This document shows positions 60,363 to 64,000 of a stretch of 64,000 bases of DNA, piece after piece. The translations under genes and the position numbers were made by a program. The notes under the pieces are model-generated. The model was not told the origin of the DNA. It saw nothing but the letters and a program-made list of their open reading frames with translations, and searched no databases. Position 1 is the first letter of the stretch. Every line of letters begins with the position of its first letter. Origin of the DNA: Acidimicrobiaceae bacterium (lineage in GTDB: Bacteria; Actinomycetota; Acidimicrobiia; Acidimicrobiales; MedAcidi-G1); assembly GCA_002717365.1 (NCBI GenBank), contig PBDJ01000034.1:33990-97989 (forward strand), written 5' to 3'.

Positions 60363-60944
60363 TTAAGTGCCCATCGCCCGGGCGGCCTGAATCAGGTCGT
60401 CATAACCACCCGGTCCCGGGTCACCGGTTCGGGAGGCCACCGAGCCACTCGCGGTGACCACGGCCATGCCCGGTGTCCCGAAGACATCGAAGAGGATCCC
60501 CACCCGCCCGTCGTCAGCAATGTGTGAGAACCCGGTGATTCCCCATTCCTGGAGGATGGATGCTGACCACTCCGGGTCAGCGTCCGGGCCGATGGTGGAC
60601 ACTCCGACGACCGTGATGTCCGGTCGGCGGCTGAGCTCGGCGACCGCCGAGGCCTCTCTACGGCACGTCGCTCAGGTAGGAGTCCAGAACCAGAACAGGA
60701 CGTCCTGGCCGGCCAGATCAGCACCGTGGAGCATGTCGCCGCCAATCAGTGTCGCCTCGAACCCCAACTCGTCCGGCACCGCAGCGCCCCGTGCGTCGGC
60801 CGCTGACCCCAACTCGGAGGCGGCCGCCTCCGAGGCGGTCGTGGGGGCCGGTATTGGAACAGGGGCGGTCGTATCGACCGCGCCGCCACAGGCACCCGCC
60901 GCGAGCACCAGGACGGCCAGAAAGTCCGTCCTGATCGGGGTCAT
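60363..60944 (-). CDS. TlpA/ResA-like thiol-disulfide oxidoreductase lipoprotein with in-frame TGA (60672-60674) as first residue of the CxxC motif; candidate selenoprotein (U91, UATC)
   Basis: Track ORFs 60672-60944 and 60363-60602 are in the same frame and separated only by TGA. The joined translation is ...[43 protein letters not shown]...[16 protein letters not shown]..., which aligns with the FW..WC..C thioredoxin-fold pattern. The N-terminus is a lipoprotein signal (LAAGAC). Confidence 0.75.
60633..60656 (-). promoter_or_regulatory. SECIS-like hairpin downstream of the TlpA-like UGA
   Basis: RNA GAG(GC)CUCGGC-GGUC-GCCGAGCUC has a 6-bp perfect upper stem, a 2-nt bulge and a 3-bp lower stem. 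As I recall it, the apical loop GGUC matches the E. coli fdhF SECIS loop sequence. The loop lies at +30 to +33 from the U of UGA. Confidence 0.55.
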
Positions 60945-61016
60945 ACCACGACTCTACGGGGTACCGTCGGCGTCGTGAGCACCCGCGTCCTGATCATCTC
61001 GGCTCTGGTGTGCGGT

Positions 61017-61064
61017 ATGGCGCTACTGGTGGCCTTCACCGTGCAGGTAGTGGTGGCGCTGTGA
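61017..61064 (+). CDS. mini-ORF MALLVAFTVQVVVAL upstream of lpdA (may extend to GTG 60975, giving 29 aa)
   Basis: The stop TGA (61062-61064) overlaps the lpdA GTG start (61061-61063). The last 12 codons and the stop are identical to the second mini-ORF at 62468-62521. Confidence 0.35.
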   Translation: MALLVAFTVQVVVAL

Positions 61065-61066
61065 CC
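61025..61066 (+). repeat. 42-bp direct repeat, copy 1 (ACTGGTGGCCTTCACCGTGCAGGTAGTGGTGGCGCTGTGACC)
   Basis: Matches 62482-62523 at every base when compared by eye. Confidence 0.95.
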
Positions 61067-62464
61067 CTCCGTCACGACCTGCTGGTGGTGGGCGGTGGCC
61101 CGGCGGGGTATGCGGCGGCGCTCTACGGGGCGGCGACCGGACTTGACGTGGGCCTCGTCGAAGAGGGGCGGATTGGCGGGACCTGTCTCCACCTCGGCTG
61201 CATCCCGGCCAAGGAACTGTTAGAGACGGCCTCGGTGCTGCGCACCGTCCGGGACGCCTCCCAGTTCGGCGTGTCGACTGGTGACCACAAGCCAGTCGTG
61301 GACTTGTCGGTTAGCCAGCAGCGCAAGCAGGAGGTCATCGACAGCCTGGCCGGTGGGCTGAGTTCCCTGCTGGCCGGACGTGACGTCACCGTCTACGACG
61401 GGACGGGACGCCTTGGCGCGGACCATGTCGTCACCGTGGACGGTCCCAACGGGTCGACCGTGGTGGTTGCCGACCACATCGTTCTGGCCACCGGGTCGAC
61501 GCCCCGCACCATTCCCGGCTTCGAGGTCGATGGGACGCTGGTCGTGACCAGCGACGAGTTGCTGTCCCTGCTTGAGGTGCCGGACCGGGTAGCGGTGATC
61601 GGGGCCGGCGCCATCGGCTGTGAGTTCGCTTCGATGCTGGCCGACTATGGCTCGACGATCACCCTCCTGGAGGCCCTCCCGGAGATCCTCCCCGGTTGTG
61701 ATACCGACGTGGCCGGGGCTCTCCAACGCTCGTTTCACCGCCGTCAGATCTCCGTGCACACTGGGGTGGTCGTTCACGGCCACGACCCAGCTGGCGGCGT
61801 CACCACCGTCCGGTTCGGCAACGACGAGGCCGTCGAGGTCGACCTGGTCGTGATGGCTGTAGGCCGCCAACCCCGGGGTGATTCGGCGGGCCTAGTTGAC
61901 ACCCGAGTGGTGGTTGACGACCGAGGCTTCATCCAGGTTGACGGCCGCCTCCGAACCGGTGAGCCAGGCGTCTACGCAGTGGGAGACGTGGTGGCCACCC
62001 CGCAGTTAGCCCACGTTGGCTTCGCCGAGGGCATGTTTGTGGTGAAGGACATTCTCGGCGAAGCGCCGACTCCTCTCGACCCGACAACTGTGCCGTGGTG
62101 TATTTATAGCCACCCCGAGGTGGCGTTTGCCGGCCTGACTGAGGCAGCGGCCGTAGAGGCCGGACACGACGTGGTGGTTAGCAGCCACCGGTTCGCCGGC
62201 AATGGGCGGGCCCGAATCTTGGGCGACACAGATGGCCTGGTGAAGGTGGTGGCCGAGCGGGACTCCGCCGGTCGAGCTGGGCGGATCTTGGGGGTCCACC
62301 TAGTCGGACCGTGGGCGACTGAGCAGTTGGGACAGGGCTATCTGGCCGTCAACTGGGAGGCCACGGTGGACGAGGTAGCGGCGTTTATCCAGCCACACCC
62401 GACACTCAGCGAGATGTTTGGCGAGACGGTATTGGCCCTCACCGGCCGGGCGCTGCACGGCTAA
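61061..62464 (+). CDS. lpdA: dihydrolipoyl dehydrogenase (E3)
   Basis: DLLVVGGGPAGYAAALYGA, redox-active disulfide GGTCLHLGCIPAK, and the C-terminal HPTLSE interface motif. The GTG 61061 start is preferred. Confidence 0.9.
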   Translation: MTLRHDLLVVGGGPAGYAAALYGAATGLDVGLVEEGRIGGTCLHLGCIPAKELLETASVLRTVRDASQFGVSTGDHKPVVDLSVSQQRKQEVIDSLAGGLSSLLAGRDVTVYDGTGRLGADHVVTVDGPNGSTVVVADHIVLATGSTPRTIPGFEVDGTLVVTSDELLSLLEVPDRVAVIGAGAIGCEFASMLADYGSTITLLEALPEILPGCDTDVAGALQRSFHRRQISVHTGVVVHGHDPAGGVTTVRFGNDEAVEVDLVVMAVGRQPRGDSAGLVDTRVVVDDRGFIQVDGRLRTGEPGVYAVGDVVATPQLAHVGFAEGMFVVKDILGEAPTPLDPTTVPWCIYSHPEVAFAGLTEAAAVEAGHDVVVSSHRFAGNGRARILGDTDGLVKVVAERDSAGRAGRILGVHLVGPWATEQLGQGYLAVNWEATVDEVAAFIQPHPTLSEMFGETVLALTGRALHG

Positions 62465-62467
62465 GCC

Positions 62468-62521
62468 ATGGCAGACACCGAACTGGTGGCCTTCACCGTG
62501 CAGGTAGTGGTGGCGCTGTGA
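62468..62521 (+). CDS. mini-ORF MADTELVAFTVQVVVAL upstream of lipB
   Basis: The ATG lies 3 nt after the lpdA stop. The stop TGA (62519-62521) overlaps the lipB GTG start (62518-62520). Confidence 0.35.
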   Translation: MADTELVAFTVQVVVAL

Positions 62522-62523
62522 CC
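62482..62523 (+). repeat. 42-bp direct repeat, copy 2
   Basis: Identical to 61025-61066. Confidence 0.95.
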
Positions 62524-64000
62524 TCCGACTCTCATCCCCGACCGTTCCGGGTCCGATGGTTGGGCCGTGTTCGCTATCGCGACGCTCTAGCTCTCCAGCA
62601 GGGCATCCATGCCCCCGCCGGGTCAGCCAATCATCCGCAGGACCACCTACTCCTCCTCGAGCACCATCCCGTCTACACGCTCGGCGTACGGGCCTCCCTG
62701 GACAACCTGCTGCTTCCCCCCAACGAGGTGGGAGCAGACCTTGAGCGGGCCGACCGGGGCGGTGATATCACCTTCCACGGTCCCGGCCAGCTAGTCGGCT
62801 ATCCGCTTCTTCACCTCCCCGGCAAGCGGGGCGGCGGCATGGCCGACACGGTGGCCTACGTACGCTCGGTGGAGGACCTCCTCATCGACGTCTGCAGAGA
62901 CCTCGGCCTTGTTGATGTGGGCCGCCTGGACCGGTACCCCGGAGTCTGGGTAGAACCCGACGGCCCCCGGCCCCGGAAGGTGGCGGCCATCGGGGTGAAG
63001 TTAACCCGGAGCAGAACCATGCACGGTTTCGCCCTCAACGTGGACCCCGACCTTTCGTACTTCGACCGCATGGTCCCCTGCGGGATTGCCGGCTATGGAG
63101 TCACGTCGTTGGCCGCCGAGGGGATTGACGCGCCGATGCGCCGGGTCGTCGACCGTGTGGTCGACCGGGCCGTCGATCGATGGGCGGCTGGCCCAGTGGA
63201 CAGGGCCGACGTGGCGTGGACTTACCGGGCCGACGACCTGAGTGCCTTTAGCCGGGGTGGAGGGGCAGGGGGCCGTCCGCTGGTGGGTCGCAAGCCGGAG
63301 TGGATGAGGGTGCCGCTGGAGACGGGGCCCGACTACCTGCGCCTCAAGGCCGTGATGCGCAGCCGTCAGCTCACCACGGTGTGCGAGGAGGCTGGTTGTC
63401 CCAACGTGTTCGATTGCTGGAATGACGGCACGGCTACCTTCATGATCAACGGCGAGCGGTGCACCCGGGCCTGTGGCTTCTGCCTGGTCGACACTCGGAG
63501 GCCTGACGCCCCCGATCTCGACGAGCCCTACCGGGTGGCCGAGGCGGTGGCCGAGATGGGCCTGCGCCACGCCGTGGTGACCGCGGTGGCCCGAGACGAC
63601 CTACACGATGGCGGAGCGTCGGCCTTCGCGGCCACCATCACTGCTGTCCGGGACCGCAACCCGGGAACGGCCGTCGAGGTGCTAATCCCGGACTGCAAGG
63701 GCGACCCGGAGGCTCTTGGGGCGGTATTCGATGCCCGACCCGACGTCCTGAACCACAACGTCGAGACGGTGGCCCGCCTGCAACGGCGGGTCCGCCCGTC
63801 AGCGTCTTACGCCCGCAGCCTGTCGGTGCTGGCCCGGGCGAAGGCGGCAGGCCTGACTACTAAGTCATCGATCATCGTCGGTCTAGGAGAGACCGACGAT
63901 GAAGTGGAGGGCTGCCTAGCTGATCTAGCCGCCGTGGACTGCGACATCGTGACCATCGGCCAGTACCTGCGGCCTACCACCAACCACCTTCCGGTGGAAC
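62518..64000 (+). CDS. lipB-lipA: octanoyltransferase LipB fused in frame to lipoyl synthase LipA (3' end outside window)
   Basis: Not in the ORF track because the frame has no stop before the window end. I translated codon by codon from GTG 62518. LipB motifs: HHPVYTLG, GGDITFHGPGQLVGYP, RKVAAIGVK and MVPCGI. Then a Gly-rich linker SRGGGAGGRP, then LipA motifs KPEWMRV, CEEAGCPN and radical-SAM CTRACGFC. There is no stop codon between the domains. Confidence 0.8.
   Translation, partial: MTSDSHPRPFRVRWLGRVRYRDALALQQGIHAPAGSANHPQDHLLLLEHHPVYTLGVRASLDNLLLPPNEVGADLERADRGGDITFHGPGQLVGYPLLHLPGKRGGGMADTVAYVRSVEDLLIDVCRDLGLVDVGRLDRYPGVWVEPDGPRPRKVAAIGVKLTRSRTMHGFALNVDPDLSYFDRMVPCGIAGYGVTSLAAEGIDAPMRRVVDRVVDRAVDRWAAGPVDRADVAWTYRADDLSAFSRGGGAGGRPLVGRKPEWMRVPLETGPDYLRLKAVMRSRQLTTVCEEAGCPNVFDCWNDGTATFMINGERCTRACGFCLVDTRRPDAPDLDEPYRVAEAVAEMGLRHAVVTAVARDDLHDGGASAFAATITAVRDRNPGTAVEVLIPDCKGDPEALGAVFDARPDVLNHNVETVARLQRRVRPSASYARSLSVLARAKAAGLTTKSSIIVGLGETDDEVEGCLADLAAVDCDIVTIGQYLRPTTNHLPVE

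What the first reader, a model, noticed from the sequence alone, without database searches (positions are those of the whole stretch)
60975..62523. Perfect 42-bp direct repeat placing the same Val-rich mini-ORF tail and GTGA stop/start overlap in front of both lpdA and lipB-lipA
ACTGGTGGCCTTCACCGTGCAGGTAGTGGTGGCGCTGTGACC occurs at 61025-61066 and again at 62482-62523. In both copies it encodes the identical peptide tail LVAFTVQVVVAL followed by TGA. That TGA overlaps a GTG that is the best start codon of the next gene (lpdA, then lipB). The two mini-ORFs differ only at their N-termini (MAL... and MADTE...). The second begins 3 nt after the lpdA stop, so the whole unit (uORF1-lpdA-uORF2-lipBA) looks translationally chained. 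The repeat RNA can also fold (CUUCACC...GGUGGCG) just 5' of the GTG. A duplicated cis element in front of two genes of the lipoyl-enzyme system suggests shared translational control, either termination-reinitiation coupling or a Val-sensitive leader (5 Val codons including a GTA). Alternatively it is the scar of a duplication or insertion that placed lpdA between a small ORF and lipB. I know of no described element like this.
Basis: seen in the sequence. Interest (0 to 1): 0.65.

Follow-up and report, generated by a model that had tools for sequence, protein, structure and literature searches.

The report
Repeat marks a lost E2 gene
The perfect 42-bp repeat is real, but it is the scar of a rearrangement that removed the E2 acyltransferase gene from an lpdA–E2–lipBA operon and patched the gap with a copy of the tail of a conserved small ORF; it is not a shared regulatory element.

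Summary
In detail: an exact 42-mer lies at 61025-61066 and 62482-62523, and both copies end in a TGA that overlaps a GTG start (lpdA, then a fused lipB-lipA).

Comparative data explain it. Copy 1 is the 3' end of a 28-30-codon small ORF (uORF1, 60975-61064). This ORF is conserved across Acidimicrobiales (77 copies, pN/pS about 0.29) and carries a conserved TANNNT box 7-8 nt upstream, which fits a leaderless mRNA. Most of the closer relatives (73% LipB identity or more) have uORF1-lpdA-E2(sucB-type)-lipBA.

In the window the E2 gene is gone. What remains is its start (ATGGCAGAC...) fused to a second copy of the uORF1 tail, giving a 17-codon relic ORF that bridges the lpdA stop to the lipB start.

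Six assembled contigs from strains 94-98% identical (LpdA protein or DNA) have the same gene order, but copy 2 has 4-5 substitutions there, some of them non-synonymous. So perfect identity is one allele, not a requirement.

A sister species has uORF1 fused directly to lipB. A low-GC lineage has lpdA-lipB with no second copy. The repeat RNA folds no better than shuffled sequence, the Val positions are not conserved, and no copies occur at other loci.

The relic probably keeps the ancestral translational relay into lipBA; that part is inferred. Interest is modest.

The parts
60962..60967 (+). TACCGT, a -10-like TANNNT box 7 nt upstream of the uORF1 start codon
   Evidence: A TANNNT box lies 6-9 nt upstream of the start codon in 53 of 61 distinct upstream regions from relatives, and almost none occur at other spacings. 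The inference is a leaderless uORF1 mRNA. The leftmost metatranscriptome contigs begin at 60993-61026.
60975..61064 (+). uORF1: a conserved 29-codon small ORF (VSTRVLIISALVCGMALLVAFTVQVVVAL), a predicted single hydrophobic helix, probably the first cistron of the operon
   Evidence: 77 copies and 56 distinct DNA sequences in Acidimicrobiales loci. Length 28-30 aa with no indels. pN/pS 0.29. L18, A20 and Q24 invariant (F21 in 55 of 56). GTG/ATG interchange at the start. No Pfam, NCBIfam or PDB match. Called only as a 29-aa 'hypothetical protein'.
61025..61066 (+). Repeat copy 1 (R1): the last 13 codons of uORF1, its TGA, and the overlapping GTG plus next codon of lpdA
   Evidence: Identical, or differing only at 61056 and/or the 61061 start codon (GTG to ATG), in all strains of the species complex.
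61061..62464 (+). lpdA (dihydrolipoyl dehydrogenase, E3), GTG start in a GTGA overlap with the uORF1 stop
   Evidence: TIGR01350 scores 453 bits against a cutoff of 408.8, with matching Pfam domains. The start is supported by an ATG at the same position in L117/L118 and in RNA-run strains.
62468..62481 (+). Relic of the E2 (sucB-type acyltransferase) start: ATGGCAGACACCGA (M A D T E), 3 nt after the lpdA stop
   Evidence: In the closest E2-bearing relatives (L002, L003, L053) E2 starts 4 nt after the lpdA stop, and 3-15 nt after it in the other relatives shown, with ATGGCCGAC... (MADVLLPQLGETV...). The E2 identity was confirmed by Pfam and NCBIfam on the L003 protein.
62468..62521 (+). uORF2: a 17-codon relic ORF (MADTELVAFTVQVVVAL) made of the E2 start plus a copy of the uORF1 tail; its TGA overlaps the lipB GTG
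   Evidence: The frame and the stop/start overlap are kept in all strain variants while the peptide drifts: MADIELVAFTLQVVVAP and MADTELVAITLQVVVAP.
62482..62523 (+). Repeat copy 2 (R2): a paralogous copy of R1. The left junction falls at an ACTG(G) microhomology and the right junction at a (C)GTGACC microhomology shared by the lpdA and lipB starts
   Evidence: R2 is polymorphic in nature. It is identical to R1 in X1-X4. It carries four substitutions (62498 G>C, 62506 A>G, 62515 G>A, 62517 T>C) in X6, X8, L094, L104, L115, L117 and L118. L114 has five differences. An intermediate with only 62498 occurs in X5 and X7.
62518..64000 (+). Fused lipB-lipA ORF (octanoyltransferase plus lipoyl synthase), GTG start in a GTGA overlap with the uORF2 stop; it runs off the window end
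   Evidence: Pfam LplA-B_cat, LIAS_N and Radical_SAM; NCBIfam LipB and lipoyl synthase. The full-length product is 550 aa in L117/L118. No other in-frame start lies upstream. L002 has ATG at the same position.

Best explanation
The repeat is the scar of a gene-loss rearrangement.

Ancestral state (shown by comparison). In the lineage's closer marine relatives the operon was uORF1 - lpdA (E3) - E2 acyltransferase (sucB type) - lipB-lipA. uORF1 is a conserved 28-30-aa hydrophobic small ORF. Cistrons were joined by 4-nt stop/start overlaps or gaps of a few nucleotides.

What happened (shown). In the lineage of the window the E2 gene body was removed. The gap now holds a second copy of the last 13 codons of uORF1 with its TGA/GTG overlap.

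How the junctions formed (inferred). The left junction joins E2 codon 5/6 to uORF1 codon 17/18 at an ACTG(G) microhomology. The right junction uses the (C)GTGACC shared by the starts of lpdA and lipB.

Result. A 17-codon relic ORF begins at the old E2 start, 3 nt after the lpdA stop, and terminates on the lipB start codon.

Function (inferred, not shown). Ribosomes that initiate on a leaderless uORF1 mRNA are passed on by termination-reinitiation to lpdA, then to the relic ORF, then to lipB-lipA. On this view the relic keeps the coupling that E2 used to provide, and that is why this particular deletion product survived.

Perfect identity (shown to be allele-specific). The identity of the two copies is a property of this allele only, either low divergence plus one converting change or gene conversion from R1. 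Sister strains carry a diverged copy 2.
For: Gene order
- Of the 80 genome loci found with LipB, the 19 closer relatives whose contigs reach upstream (L002, L003, L006-L010, L012, L013, L015-L017, L019-L025, L053) have lpdA, then about 1.3 kb, then lipB-lipA; 15 of these also show leuC upstream.
- That 1.3 kb is an E2 with lipoyl, E3-binding and 2-oxoacid_dh domains.
- E2 starts MADVLLPQLGE, 3-15 nt after the lpdA stop (4 nt in the closest relatives L002, L003, L053). The window keeps ATGGCAGAC at that position, followed by the repeat.

uORF1
- It precedes lpdA in relatives and is conserved as a peptide despite many synonymous changes.

Independent support for the structure
- The arrangement is seen in 8 metagenomes and 6 assembled contigs.
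- The assembled contigs have 4-5 differences in R2. These include V>L, L>P and F>I at the F21 position, which is conserved in 55 of 56 distinct uORF1 sequences. The frame and the TGA/GTG overlap are intact in all of them.
- uORF2 is the most diverged feature between the window and L104: 90.7% identity against 98.1% overall.

Other E2-less solutions that also keep tight coupling
- The sister species (L001, L093, L101, L106, L108, L110) has uORF1 fused directly to lipB with the same junction sequence.
- The low-GC L031 group has the lipB ATG 2-4 nt after the lpdA stop.
- The ancestral E2/lipB junction is a 4-nt overlap in 27 relatives.

Transcription
- Metatranscriptome contigs run continuously across lpdA-uORF2-lipB, for example X27 at 61676-62861.
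- No terminator-like site lies between the genes.
- The TANNNT box sits 6-9 nt before the uORF1 start in 53 of 61 upstream regions.

Literature
- Overlapping stop/start pairs couple translation by termination-reinitiation (PMC6728339).
Against: - No relative that still carries E2 exists inside the window/L001 clade. The exact ancestral E2 sequence at the left junction, and so the microhomology, is inferred.
- The order of events is unresolved. The window type could have come first and the sister type arisen by recombination between the two copies. Or the sister type could have come first and lpdA been re-acquired. Or the right junction could have formed twice, because a microhomology deletion gives the same junction each time.
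- Translational coupling and the leaderless start are inferred from sequence geometry and conservation only. The RNA data are assembled contigs without strand or 5'-end information and may contain DNA.
- With only 17 codons and a few substitutions, the survival of the uORF2 frame is weak evidence for selection.
- The clustering of 4 mismatches in R2 (Poisson P = 0.009 against the average rate) is not significant against a neutral rate. Gene conversion in the window's allele is therefore suggested, not shown.
Confidence: 0.8

Rival explanations
1. A duplicated cis-regulatory element, kept by selection in front of two lipoyl-system genes. It would act as a common translational control module or a Val-sensitive leader peptide / attenuator.
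For: Both copies place the same peptide tail and GTGA overlap in front of a gene, and they are 42/42 identical in the window. Leaderless short ORFs that act as amino-acid-responsive attenuators are known in mycobacteria (bioRxiv 10.1101/834739, listed).
Against: - The second copy occurs only in this species complex. All other relatives have E2 or nothing at that place, including lineages with the same lpdA-lipB order.
- R2 carries 4-5 substitutions, 2-3 of them non-synonymous, in strains 94-98% identical (LpdA protein or DNA).
- There is no RNA structure beyond shuffles, no Rfam hit and no terminator.
- The Val positions vary among V, L, I and M in 56 homologues, and low-GC homologues keep a single Val.
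- lpdA and lipBA are not valine biosynthesis genes.
Confidence: 0.04
2. Insertion of lpdA. The ancestral state in this clade was small ORF directly followed by lipB, as in the sister species. lpdA, with the first codons of E2, was then re-acquired from an E2-bearing relative. One homologous crossover lay upstream and one illegitimate join lay at the ACTG microhomology inside the small ORF, which duplicated its tail.
For: The sister species (L001 plus five metagenome contigs) has exactly uORF1 followed by lipB, with the same junction sequence. A single deletion between the two (C)GTGACC sites would give that state in one step. R2 in several strains keeps the CCG codon seen in the sister species' copy.
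Against: - It needs a donor that still had the ancestral arrangement and near-identical flanks.
- lpdA shows no foreign signal. It is 82-84% identical to the L002 group, in line with lipB at 82-85%.
- DNA identity to the sister species is similar on both sides, 88.2% and 89.9%.
- uORF1-lpdA-E2-start is collinear with the closer relatives that carry E2.
- This rival is still a scar explanation. It differs only in the order of events.
Confidence: 0.15
3. An assembly artefact: a chimeric or collapsed join in a metagenome-assembled contig created the repeat or the E2-less junction.
For: Two short contigs (L084, L116) that begin with the window's R1 and lpdA 5' end switch to a sequence about 80% identical and continue into an E2. 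These look like in-silico or natural mosaics. The species' representative genome has a contig break inside lipB (L011).
Against: - The junction lpdA-TAA-GCC-ATGGCAGACACCGA-repeat is crossed by contigs in four runs from three studies. In two of them the repeat is a stand-alone 42-nt unitig: 34.1 against 12-16 in X1, and 11.6 against about 7-8.6 in X4.
- Six independently assembled contigs show the same order with a diverged R2, which cannot be produced by repeat collapse.
- RNA contigs also cross the junction.
Confidence: 0.01

Closest known systems
Microhomology-mediated deletion or duplication scars in bacterial operons (illegitimate recombination, template switching, later deletion between short direct repeats)
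   Same: There are sharp repeat boundaries that coincide with 4-7-nt microhomologies: ACTG(G) on the left and (C)GTGACC on the right. The gene between is lost. A sister lineage has exactly the product expected from recombination between the two copies.
   Different: The junction is not a simple deletion. It carries a 37-42-nt templated copy of a sequence from 1.4 kb upstream, so at least two joins, or a duplication followed by a deletion, are needed. The product is an intact mini-ORF that keeps stop/start overlaps on its downstream side.
Translational coupling by termination-reinitiation at overlapping stop/start codons (ATGA/GTGA; PMC6728339, review PMC12548453)
   Same: There are GTGA overlaps at uORF1/lpdA and uORF2/lipB and a 3-nt gap at lpdA/uORF2. 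No strong Shine-Dalgarno was noted by eye upstream of these starts (not scanned formally). The E2/lipB overlap of 4 nt is the commonest state in relatives.
   Different: Coupling was not tested here. The upstream partner of lipB is a 17-codon relic with no conserved peptide, rather than a functional protein gene.
Leaderless short ORFs at the head of actinobacterial operons (PMC4633059; polycysteine attenuator sORFs, bioRxiv 10.1101/834739)
   Same: uORF1 is a short ORF with a GTG or ATG start, placed 7-8 nt after a conserved TANNNT box. It comes first in a polycistronic unit in an actinobacterial order.
   Different: uORF1 is conserved as a hydrophobic peptide under purifying selection. In some families (L062, L068, L069, L073) it is not followed by lpdA. 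So it looks like a real small membrane-protein gene rather than a codon-sensing leader. It has no run of a single regulatory codon.

Membership tests
Leader-peptide attenuator (amino-acid-sensing uORF) | A cluster of codons for the sensed amino acid, conserved across relatives | tested here: not met
   The positions that are Val in the window are V/L/I/M in 56 distinct homologues. Low-GC homologues end ...AFAIQVLLA, with one Val.
Leader-peptide attenuator (amino-acid-sensing uORF) | Alternative RNA structures or a terminator between the leader and the regulated gene | tested here: not met
   Folding z-scores are +1.24, +0.35 and +1.62 against shuffles. There are no terminator-like sites and no Rfam hit. 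The leader stop overlaps the next start, so there is no room for an attenuator.
Termination-reinitiation translational coupling | Co-directional ORFs with a stop/start overlap or a very short gap | tested here: met
   GTGA at 61061-61064 and at 62518-62521. TAAGCCATG at 62462-62470. A 4-nt E2/lipB overlap in 27 relatives.
Termination-reinitiation translational coupling | Both ORFs lie on one transcript | tested here: inconclusive
   Metatranscriptome contigs run continuously over lpdA-uORF2-lipB. However, they are assembled contigs without strand information and could include DNA.
Termination-reinitiation translational coupling | Translation of the downstream gene depends on translation of the upstream ORF up to the overlap | not testable with these tools
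   This needs reporter fusions with a premature stop in uORF1 or uORF2, or ribosome profiling.
Interspersed repeat (REP / MITE-like) | Many copies at unrelated loci | tested here: not met
   There are two copies in 64 kb. All 32 metagenome matches to a degenerate pattern lie at the orthologous uORF1 tail.
Mobile-element insertion with target-site duplication | A mobile element (transposase or integrase, terminal repeats) lies between the direct repeats | tested here: not met
   The 1415 bp between the copies are lpdA plus the E2 start, collinear with relatives.
Leaderless small-ORF-led operon (Actinobacteria) | The transcription start coincides with an ATG or GTG start codon | tested here: inconclusive
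   Support is indirect: TANNNT lies 6-9 nt upstream in 53 of 61 relatives, there is GTG/ATG interchange, and RNA contigs begin 18-50 nt inside uORF1 with none upstream. No 5'-end mapping is available.
Protein-coding small gene (uORF1 family) | Purifying selection on the peptide, fixed length, conserved start and stop | tested here: met
   56 distinct sequences, no indels in 27 codons, 28-30 aa, pN/pS 0.29, invariant residues that the search pattern did not impose. It is also present where lpdA is not adjacent.

The most novel reading that the evidence does not exclude
uORF1 defines an undescribed family of 28-30-aa membrane peptides, conserved across the order and translated from a leaderless mRNA. 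This peptide gene is the obligatory entry point for ribosomes into the lpdA-(E2)-lipBA operon. Because every downstream cistron is expressed only by reinitiation, E2 loss was tolerated only in forms that rebuilt a stop/start relay. The 17-codon relic ORF, the direct uORF1-lipB fusion in the sister species, and the E2-start/lipB juxtaposition in the low-GC lineage would then be three independent natural 'repairs' of translational coupling.
Probability: 0.3. Interest if true: 0.5.

Novelty: new member of a known kind. Interest (0 to 1): 0.3.

Why it matters
The repeat itself is an ordinary rearrangement footprint. It should not be pursued as a new regulatory element.

What is worth keeping:
- It dates and documents the loss of a 2-oxoacid dehydrogenase E2 gene, and in a sister species of E3 as well, from the lipoate operon of a widespread marine Acidimicrobiales lineage.
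- It uncovers an unannotated small ORF conserved across the order, with a conserved promoter-like box positioned for a leaderless transcript.
- It offers a natural comparison of three E2-less architectures that all keep lipB tightly joined to an upstream ORF. This is a testable case for selection on translational coupling during gene loss.

Tried and rejected
- Val-sensitive leader and RNA hairpin: rejected.
- REP-like repeat: rejected.
- Assembly artefact: rejected.
- Mobile-element target duplication: rejected, because only lpdA lies between the copies.
- Family assignment for the small peptide: no hit in Pfam, NCBIfam or PDB.
- Exact-sequence look-ups of the window's LpdA with two alternative starts: nothing found.
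- L084 and L116 first looked like E2-bearing members of the clade. They are mosaics, with a 5' part 100% identical to the window and the rest about 80%, and were set aside.
- The E. coli-type promoter/terminator scan found nothing. That says little for this high-GC actinobacterium.
- I tried to decide between gene conversion and simple low divergence for the perfect identity. The mismatch cluster in R2 is significant against the mean rate (P = 0.009) but not against a neutral rate. Polarising with the sister species shows only one site (62517) where the window's R2 moved to the R1 state. This stays unresolved.
- The first related-loci run failed for technical reasons and was repeated.
Full report
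1. Observation

The 42-mer ACTGGTGGCCTTCACCGTGCAGGTAGTGGTGGCGCTGTGACC occurs exactly twice, at 61025-61066 and 62482-62523. There are no further matches with up to 3 mismatches, and none in 100 shuffles. It is the only long exact repeat in the window, and identity ends abruptly on both sides.

Copy 1 is the 3' end of an ORF from GTG 60975 to TGA 61064 (VSTRVLIISALVCGMALLVAFTVQVVVAL). That TGA overlaps GTG 61061, which opens a 467-aa dihydrolipoyl dehydrogenase (TIGR01350, 453 bits against a cutoff of 408.8).

Copy 2 is the 3' end of a 17-codon ORF from ATG 62468 to TGA 62521 (MADTELVAFTVQVVVAL). It begins 3 nt after the lpdA TAA. Its TGA overlaps GTG 62518, which opens a fused LipB-LipA ORF that runs off the window end. 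The window is 67% G+C, and its relatives are marine Acidimicrobiales MAGs.

2. The structure is real

Logan k=31 contigs from eight marine metagenomes were laid on the locus. In X1-X4 the graph breaks exactly at the repeat. In X1 and X4 the repeat is a stand-alone 42-nt unitig: 34.1 in X1 against 12-16 for the flanking contigs, and 11.6 in X4 against about 7-8.6. In all four, contigs run from the end of copy 1 through lpdA and the ATGGCAGACACCGA junction into copy 2. Independently assembled contigs (L094, L104, L114, L115, L117, L118) show the same gene order.

3. What relatives show

A LipB-based scan of one genome per species returned 80 Acidimicrobiales loci.

- The 19 closer relatives whose contigs reach upstream (L002, L003, L006-L010, L012, L013, L015-L017, L019-L025, L053; LipB 73-85% identical) have lpdA, then about 1.3 kb, then lipB-lipA. 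Fifteen of them also show leuC(-) upstream, with or without a thioredoxin-like gene(-).
- The 1.3 kb encode an E2 acyltransferase with lipoyl, E3-binding and catalytic domains. Its best NCBIfam match is SucB_Actino.
- E2 starts 3-15 nt after the lpdA stop (4 nt in the closest relatives L002, L003, L053), with ATGGCCGAC... (MADVLLPQLGETV). Its stop usually overlaps the lipB start by 4 nt, in 27 loci.
- The small ORF in front of lpdA is present throughout.

So uORF2 of the window is the E2 start (ATGGCAGAC, plus two more codons) joined to a copy of the uORF1 tail. The E2 body is missing. There is no other E2 in the 64-kb window.

The left junction lies at ACTG(G). This is shared between uORF1 (GCG CTA CTG GTG) and the likely ancestral E2 (..GAA CTG ...; L104 reads MADIEL). 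The right junction lies at (C)GTGACC, which is common to the lpdA and lipB starts. These microhomologies are inferred, because no E2-bearing member of the immediate clade was found. The two candidates, L084 and L116, are mosaics.

4. Other E2-less arrangements

- The sister species (L001 and five metagenome contigs; 88-90% DNA identity) has uORF1 fused directly to lipB, with the same junction sequence and with neither lpdA nor E2.
- No LpdA in the 89-93% identity range exists among 5.8 billion proteins, so that species seems to have lost this lpdA.
- A low-GC lineage (L031, L034, L036, L038, L043, L044, L046, L057, L074) has uORF1, a 45-50-nt spacer, lpdA and then lipB. There the lipB ATG lies 2-4 nt after the lpdA stop, and there is no second copy.

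5. Perfect identity is allele-specific

The window and L104 are 98.1% identical over 4488 bp without gaps. Four of the 84 mismatches fall in copy 2, and uORF2 is the most diverged feature (90.7%).

The states of copy 2 seen in nature are:
- identical to copy 1 in X1-X4 and most of X5;
- one difference (62498) in part of X5 and X7;
- only 62517 T>C in the RNA-run strains;
- four differences in X6, X8, L094, L104, L115, L117 and L118;
- five differences in L114.

The changes include V>L, L>P and F>I at a position conserved in 55 of 56 distinct uORF1 sequences. The frame and the TGA/GTG overlap persist in every variant. Copy 1 is identical in the DNA contigs, apart from GTG>ATG at the lpdA start codon in L117/L118; the RNA-run strains also carry 61056 G>A.

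Polarising with the sister species shows that the L104 type gained three changes. The window's copy 2 changed at one site (62517, C to T), towards the state of copy 1. That fits gene conversion or a single parallel mutation, and the data cannot separate the two.

6. uORF1 is a real small gene

- There are 77 copies and 56 distinct sequences, 28-30 aa long, with no indels in 27 codons.
- pN/pS is 0.29. L18, A20 and Q24 are invariant (F21 in 55 of 56), and the search pattern did not impose them.
- Start codons are GTG (47) or ATG (9).
- In L062, L068, L069 and L073 the ORF is not next to lpdA; in L062 and L069 it lies near the thioredoxin-like gene.
- It has no Pfam, NCBIfam or PDB relative and appears only as a 29-aa 'hypothetical protein'.
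- A TANNNT hexamer, mostly TACCGT, lies 6-9 nt upstream of the start in 53 of 61 distinct upstream regions and almost nowhere else.

From my own knowledge (not checked here), TANNNT about 7 nt upstream of the transcription start is the actinobacterial -10 consensus. Shell et al. show that a 5' ATG or GTG is necessary and sufficient for leaderless translation in mycobacteria, and that small ORFs are common at the 5' ends of transcripts (PMC4633059). Metatranscriptome contigs start at 60993-61026, and none extends upstream. A leaderless uORF1 mRNA is therefore likely but not shown.

7. Rejected mechanisms

- RNA structure: the repeat alone and both contexts fold no better than shuffles (z +1.24, +0.35, +1.62). 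There is no Rfam hit and no terminator.
- Val sensing: the Val positions are not conserved as Val.
- REP-like repeat: all 32 metagenome matches lie at the orthologous site.
- Mobile element: nothing but lpdA lies between the copies.

8. Mechanism proposed

Shown: E2 was lost, copy 2 is paralogous to the tail of uORF1, copy 2 is polymorphic, and the stop/start geometry is as described.

Inferred: expression of the operon by a relay of termination-reinitiation events starting at uORF1 (concept: PMC6728339; review PMC12548453), with the relic ORF taking the place of E2 as the bridge into lipB-lipA. Three different E2-less architectures all keep lipB within 4 nt of an upstream stop, which is suggestive.

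Unresolved: the order of events. One route is duplication, then deletion, then loss of lpdA in the sister species by recombination between the copies. The other is deletion first, then re-insertion of lpdA.

9. Verdict

The repeat is a rearrangement scar with a plausible passive role in keeping translational coupling. It is not a novel regulatory element, so interest is modest (0.3). The by-products are the undescribed small ORF conserved across the order and the selenoprotein next door.

Noticed in passing
window 60363-60944 (- strand); in-frame TGA at 60672-60674; hairpin about 60634-60653: The divergent neighbour is a thioredoxin-like (TlpA/DsbE/AhpC-TSA-like) lipoprotein gene with an in-frame TGA in the motif WFWTPT-U-ATC, i.e. 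UxxC. The TGA is conserved in about 40 relatives, and only one has Cys there. It is followed by a hairpin with an invariant GGUC apical loop, and 4 of 7 pairs show compensatory changes, as in a bacterial SECIS. This is a probable selenoprotein that gene callers split into two ORFs of 90 aa and 79-82 aa.
   Followed up: partly
window 60945-60974 and relatives: The 30-bp gap between the divergent trx-like gene and uORF1 holds two back-to-back TANNNT boxes: TACCGT for uORF1 and, on the other strand, TAGAGT 6 nt before the trx ATG. This suggests a compact pair of divergent leaderless promoters. The trx side was seen by eye only.
   Followed up: partly
window 62518-64000; L117 5458-7110: LipB and LipA are fused into one 550-aa ORF in the window's group of closer relatives, where the lipA match directly abuts or lies within about 50 nt of the lipB match. 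In the more distant loci the two matches lie about 50-270 nt apart. NCBIfam has a model for an LplA-LipA fusion, which the LipA half of the window's protein matches below cutoff. No LipB-LipA fusion model appeared among the hits.
   Followed up: no
L031, L046, L057, L074 (lpdA/lipB junction): In the low-GC lineage the lipB ATG lies 2-4 nt after the lpdA stop. In L046, L057 and L074 LipB starts ATGGCAGAA (MAE...), which resembles the E2 start ATGGC(A/C)GAC of other lineages. E2 may have been lost there by an in-frame fusion of its start to lipB, independently of the window's lineage.
   Followed up: no
L084 (LULF01011530.1) and L116 (Logan contig of SRR13782137): Two short contigs begin with sequence identical to the window (uORF1 tail; in L084 about 200 nt of lpdA). 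They then continue at about 80% identity into a different lineage's lpdA and E2. They are either assembler chimeras at a conserved stretch of lpdA or natural recombinants.
   Followed up: partly
L011 (JAZADL010000151.1) and L113: The species-representative MAG has a contig that starts inside lipB. Another assembly's contig (L113) ends about 70 nt after copy 1. This is consistent with the repeat or strain variation fragmenting short-read assemblies here.
   Followed up: no
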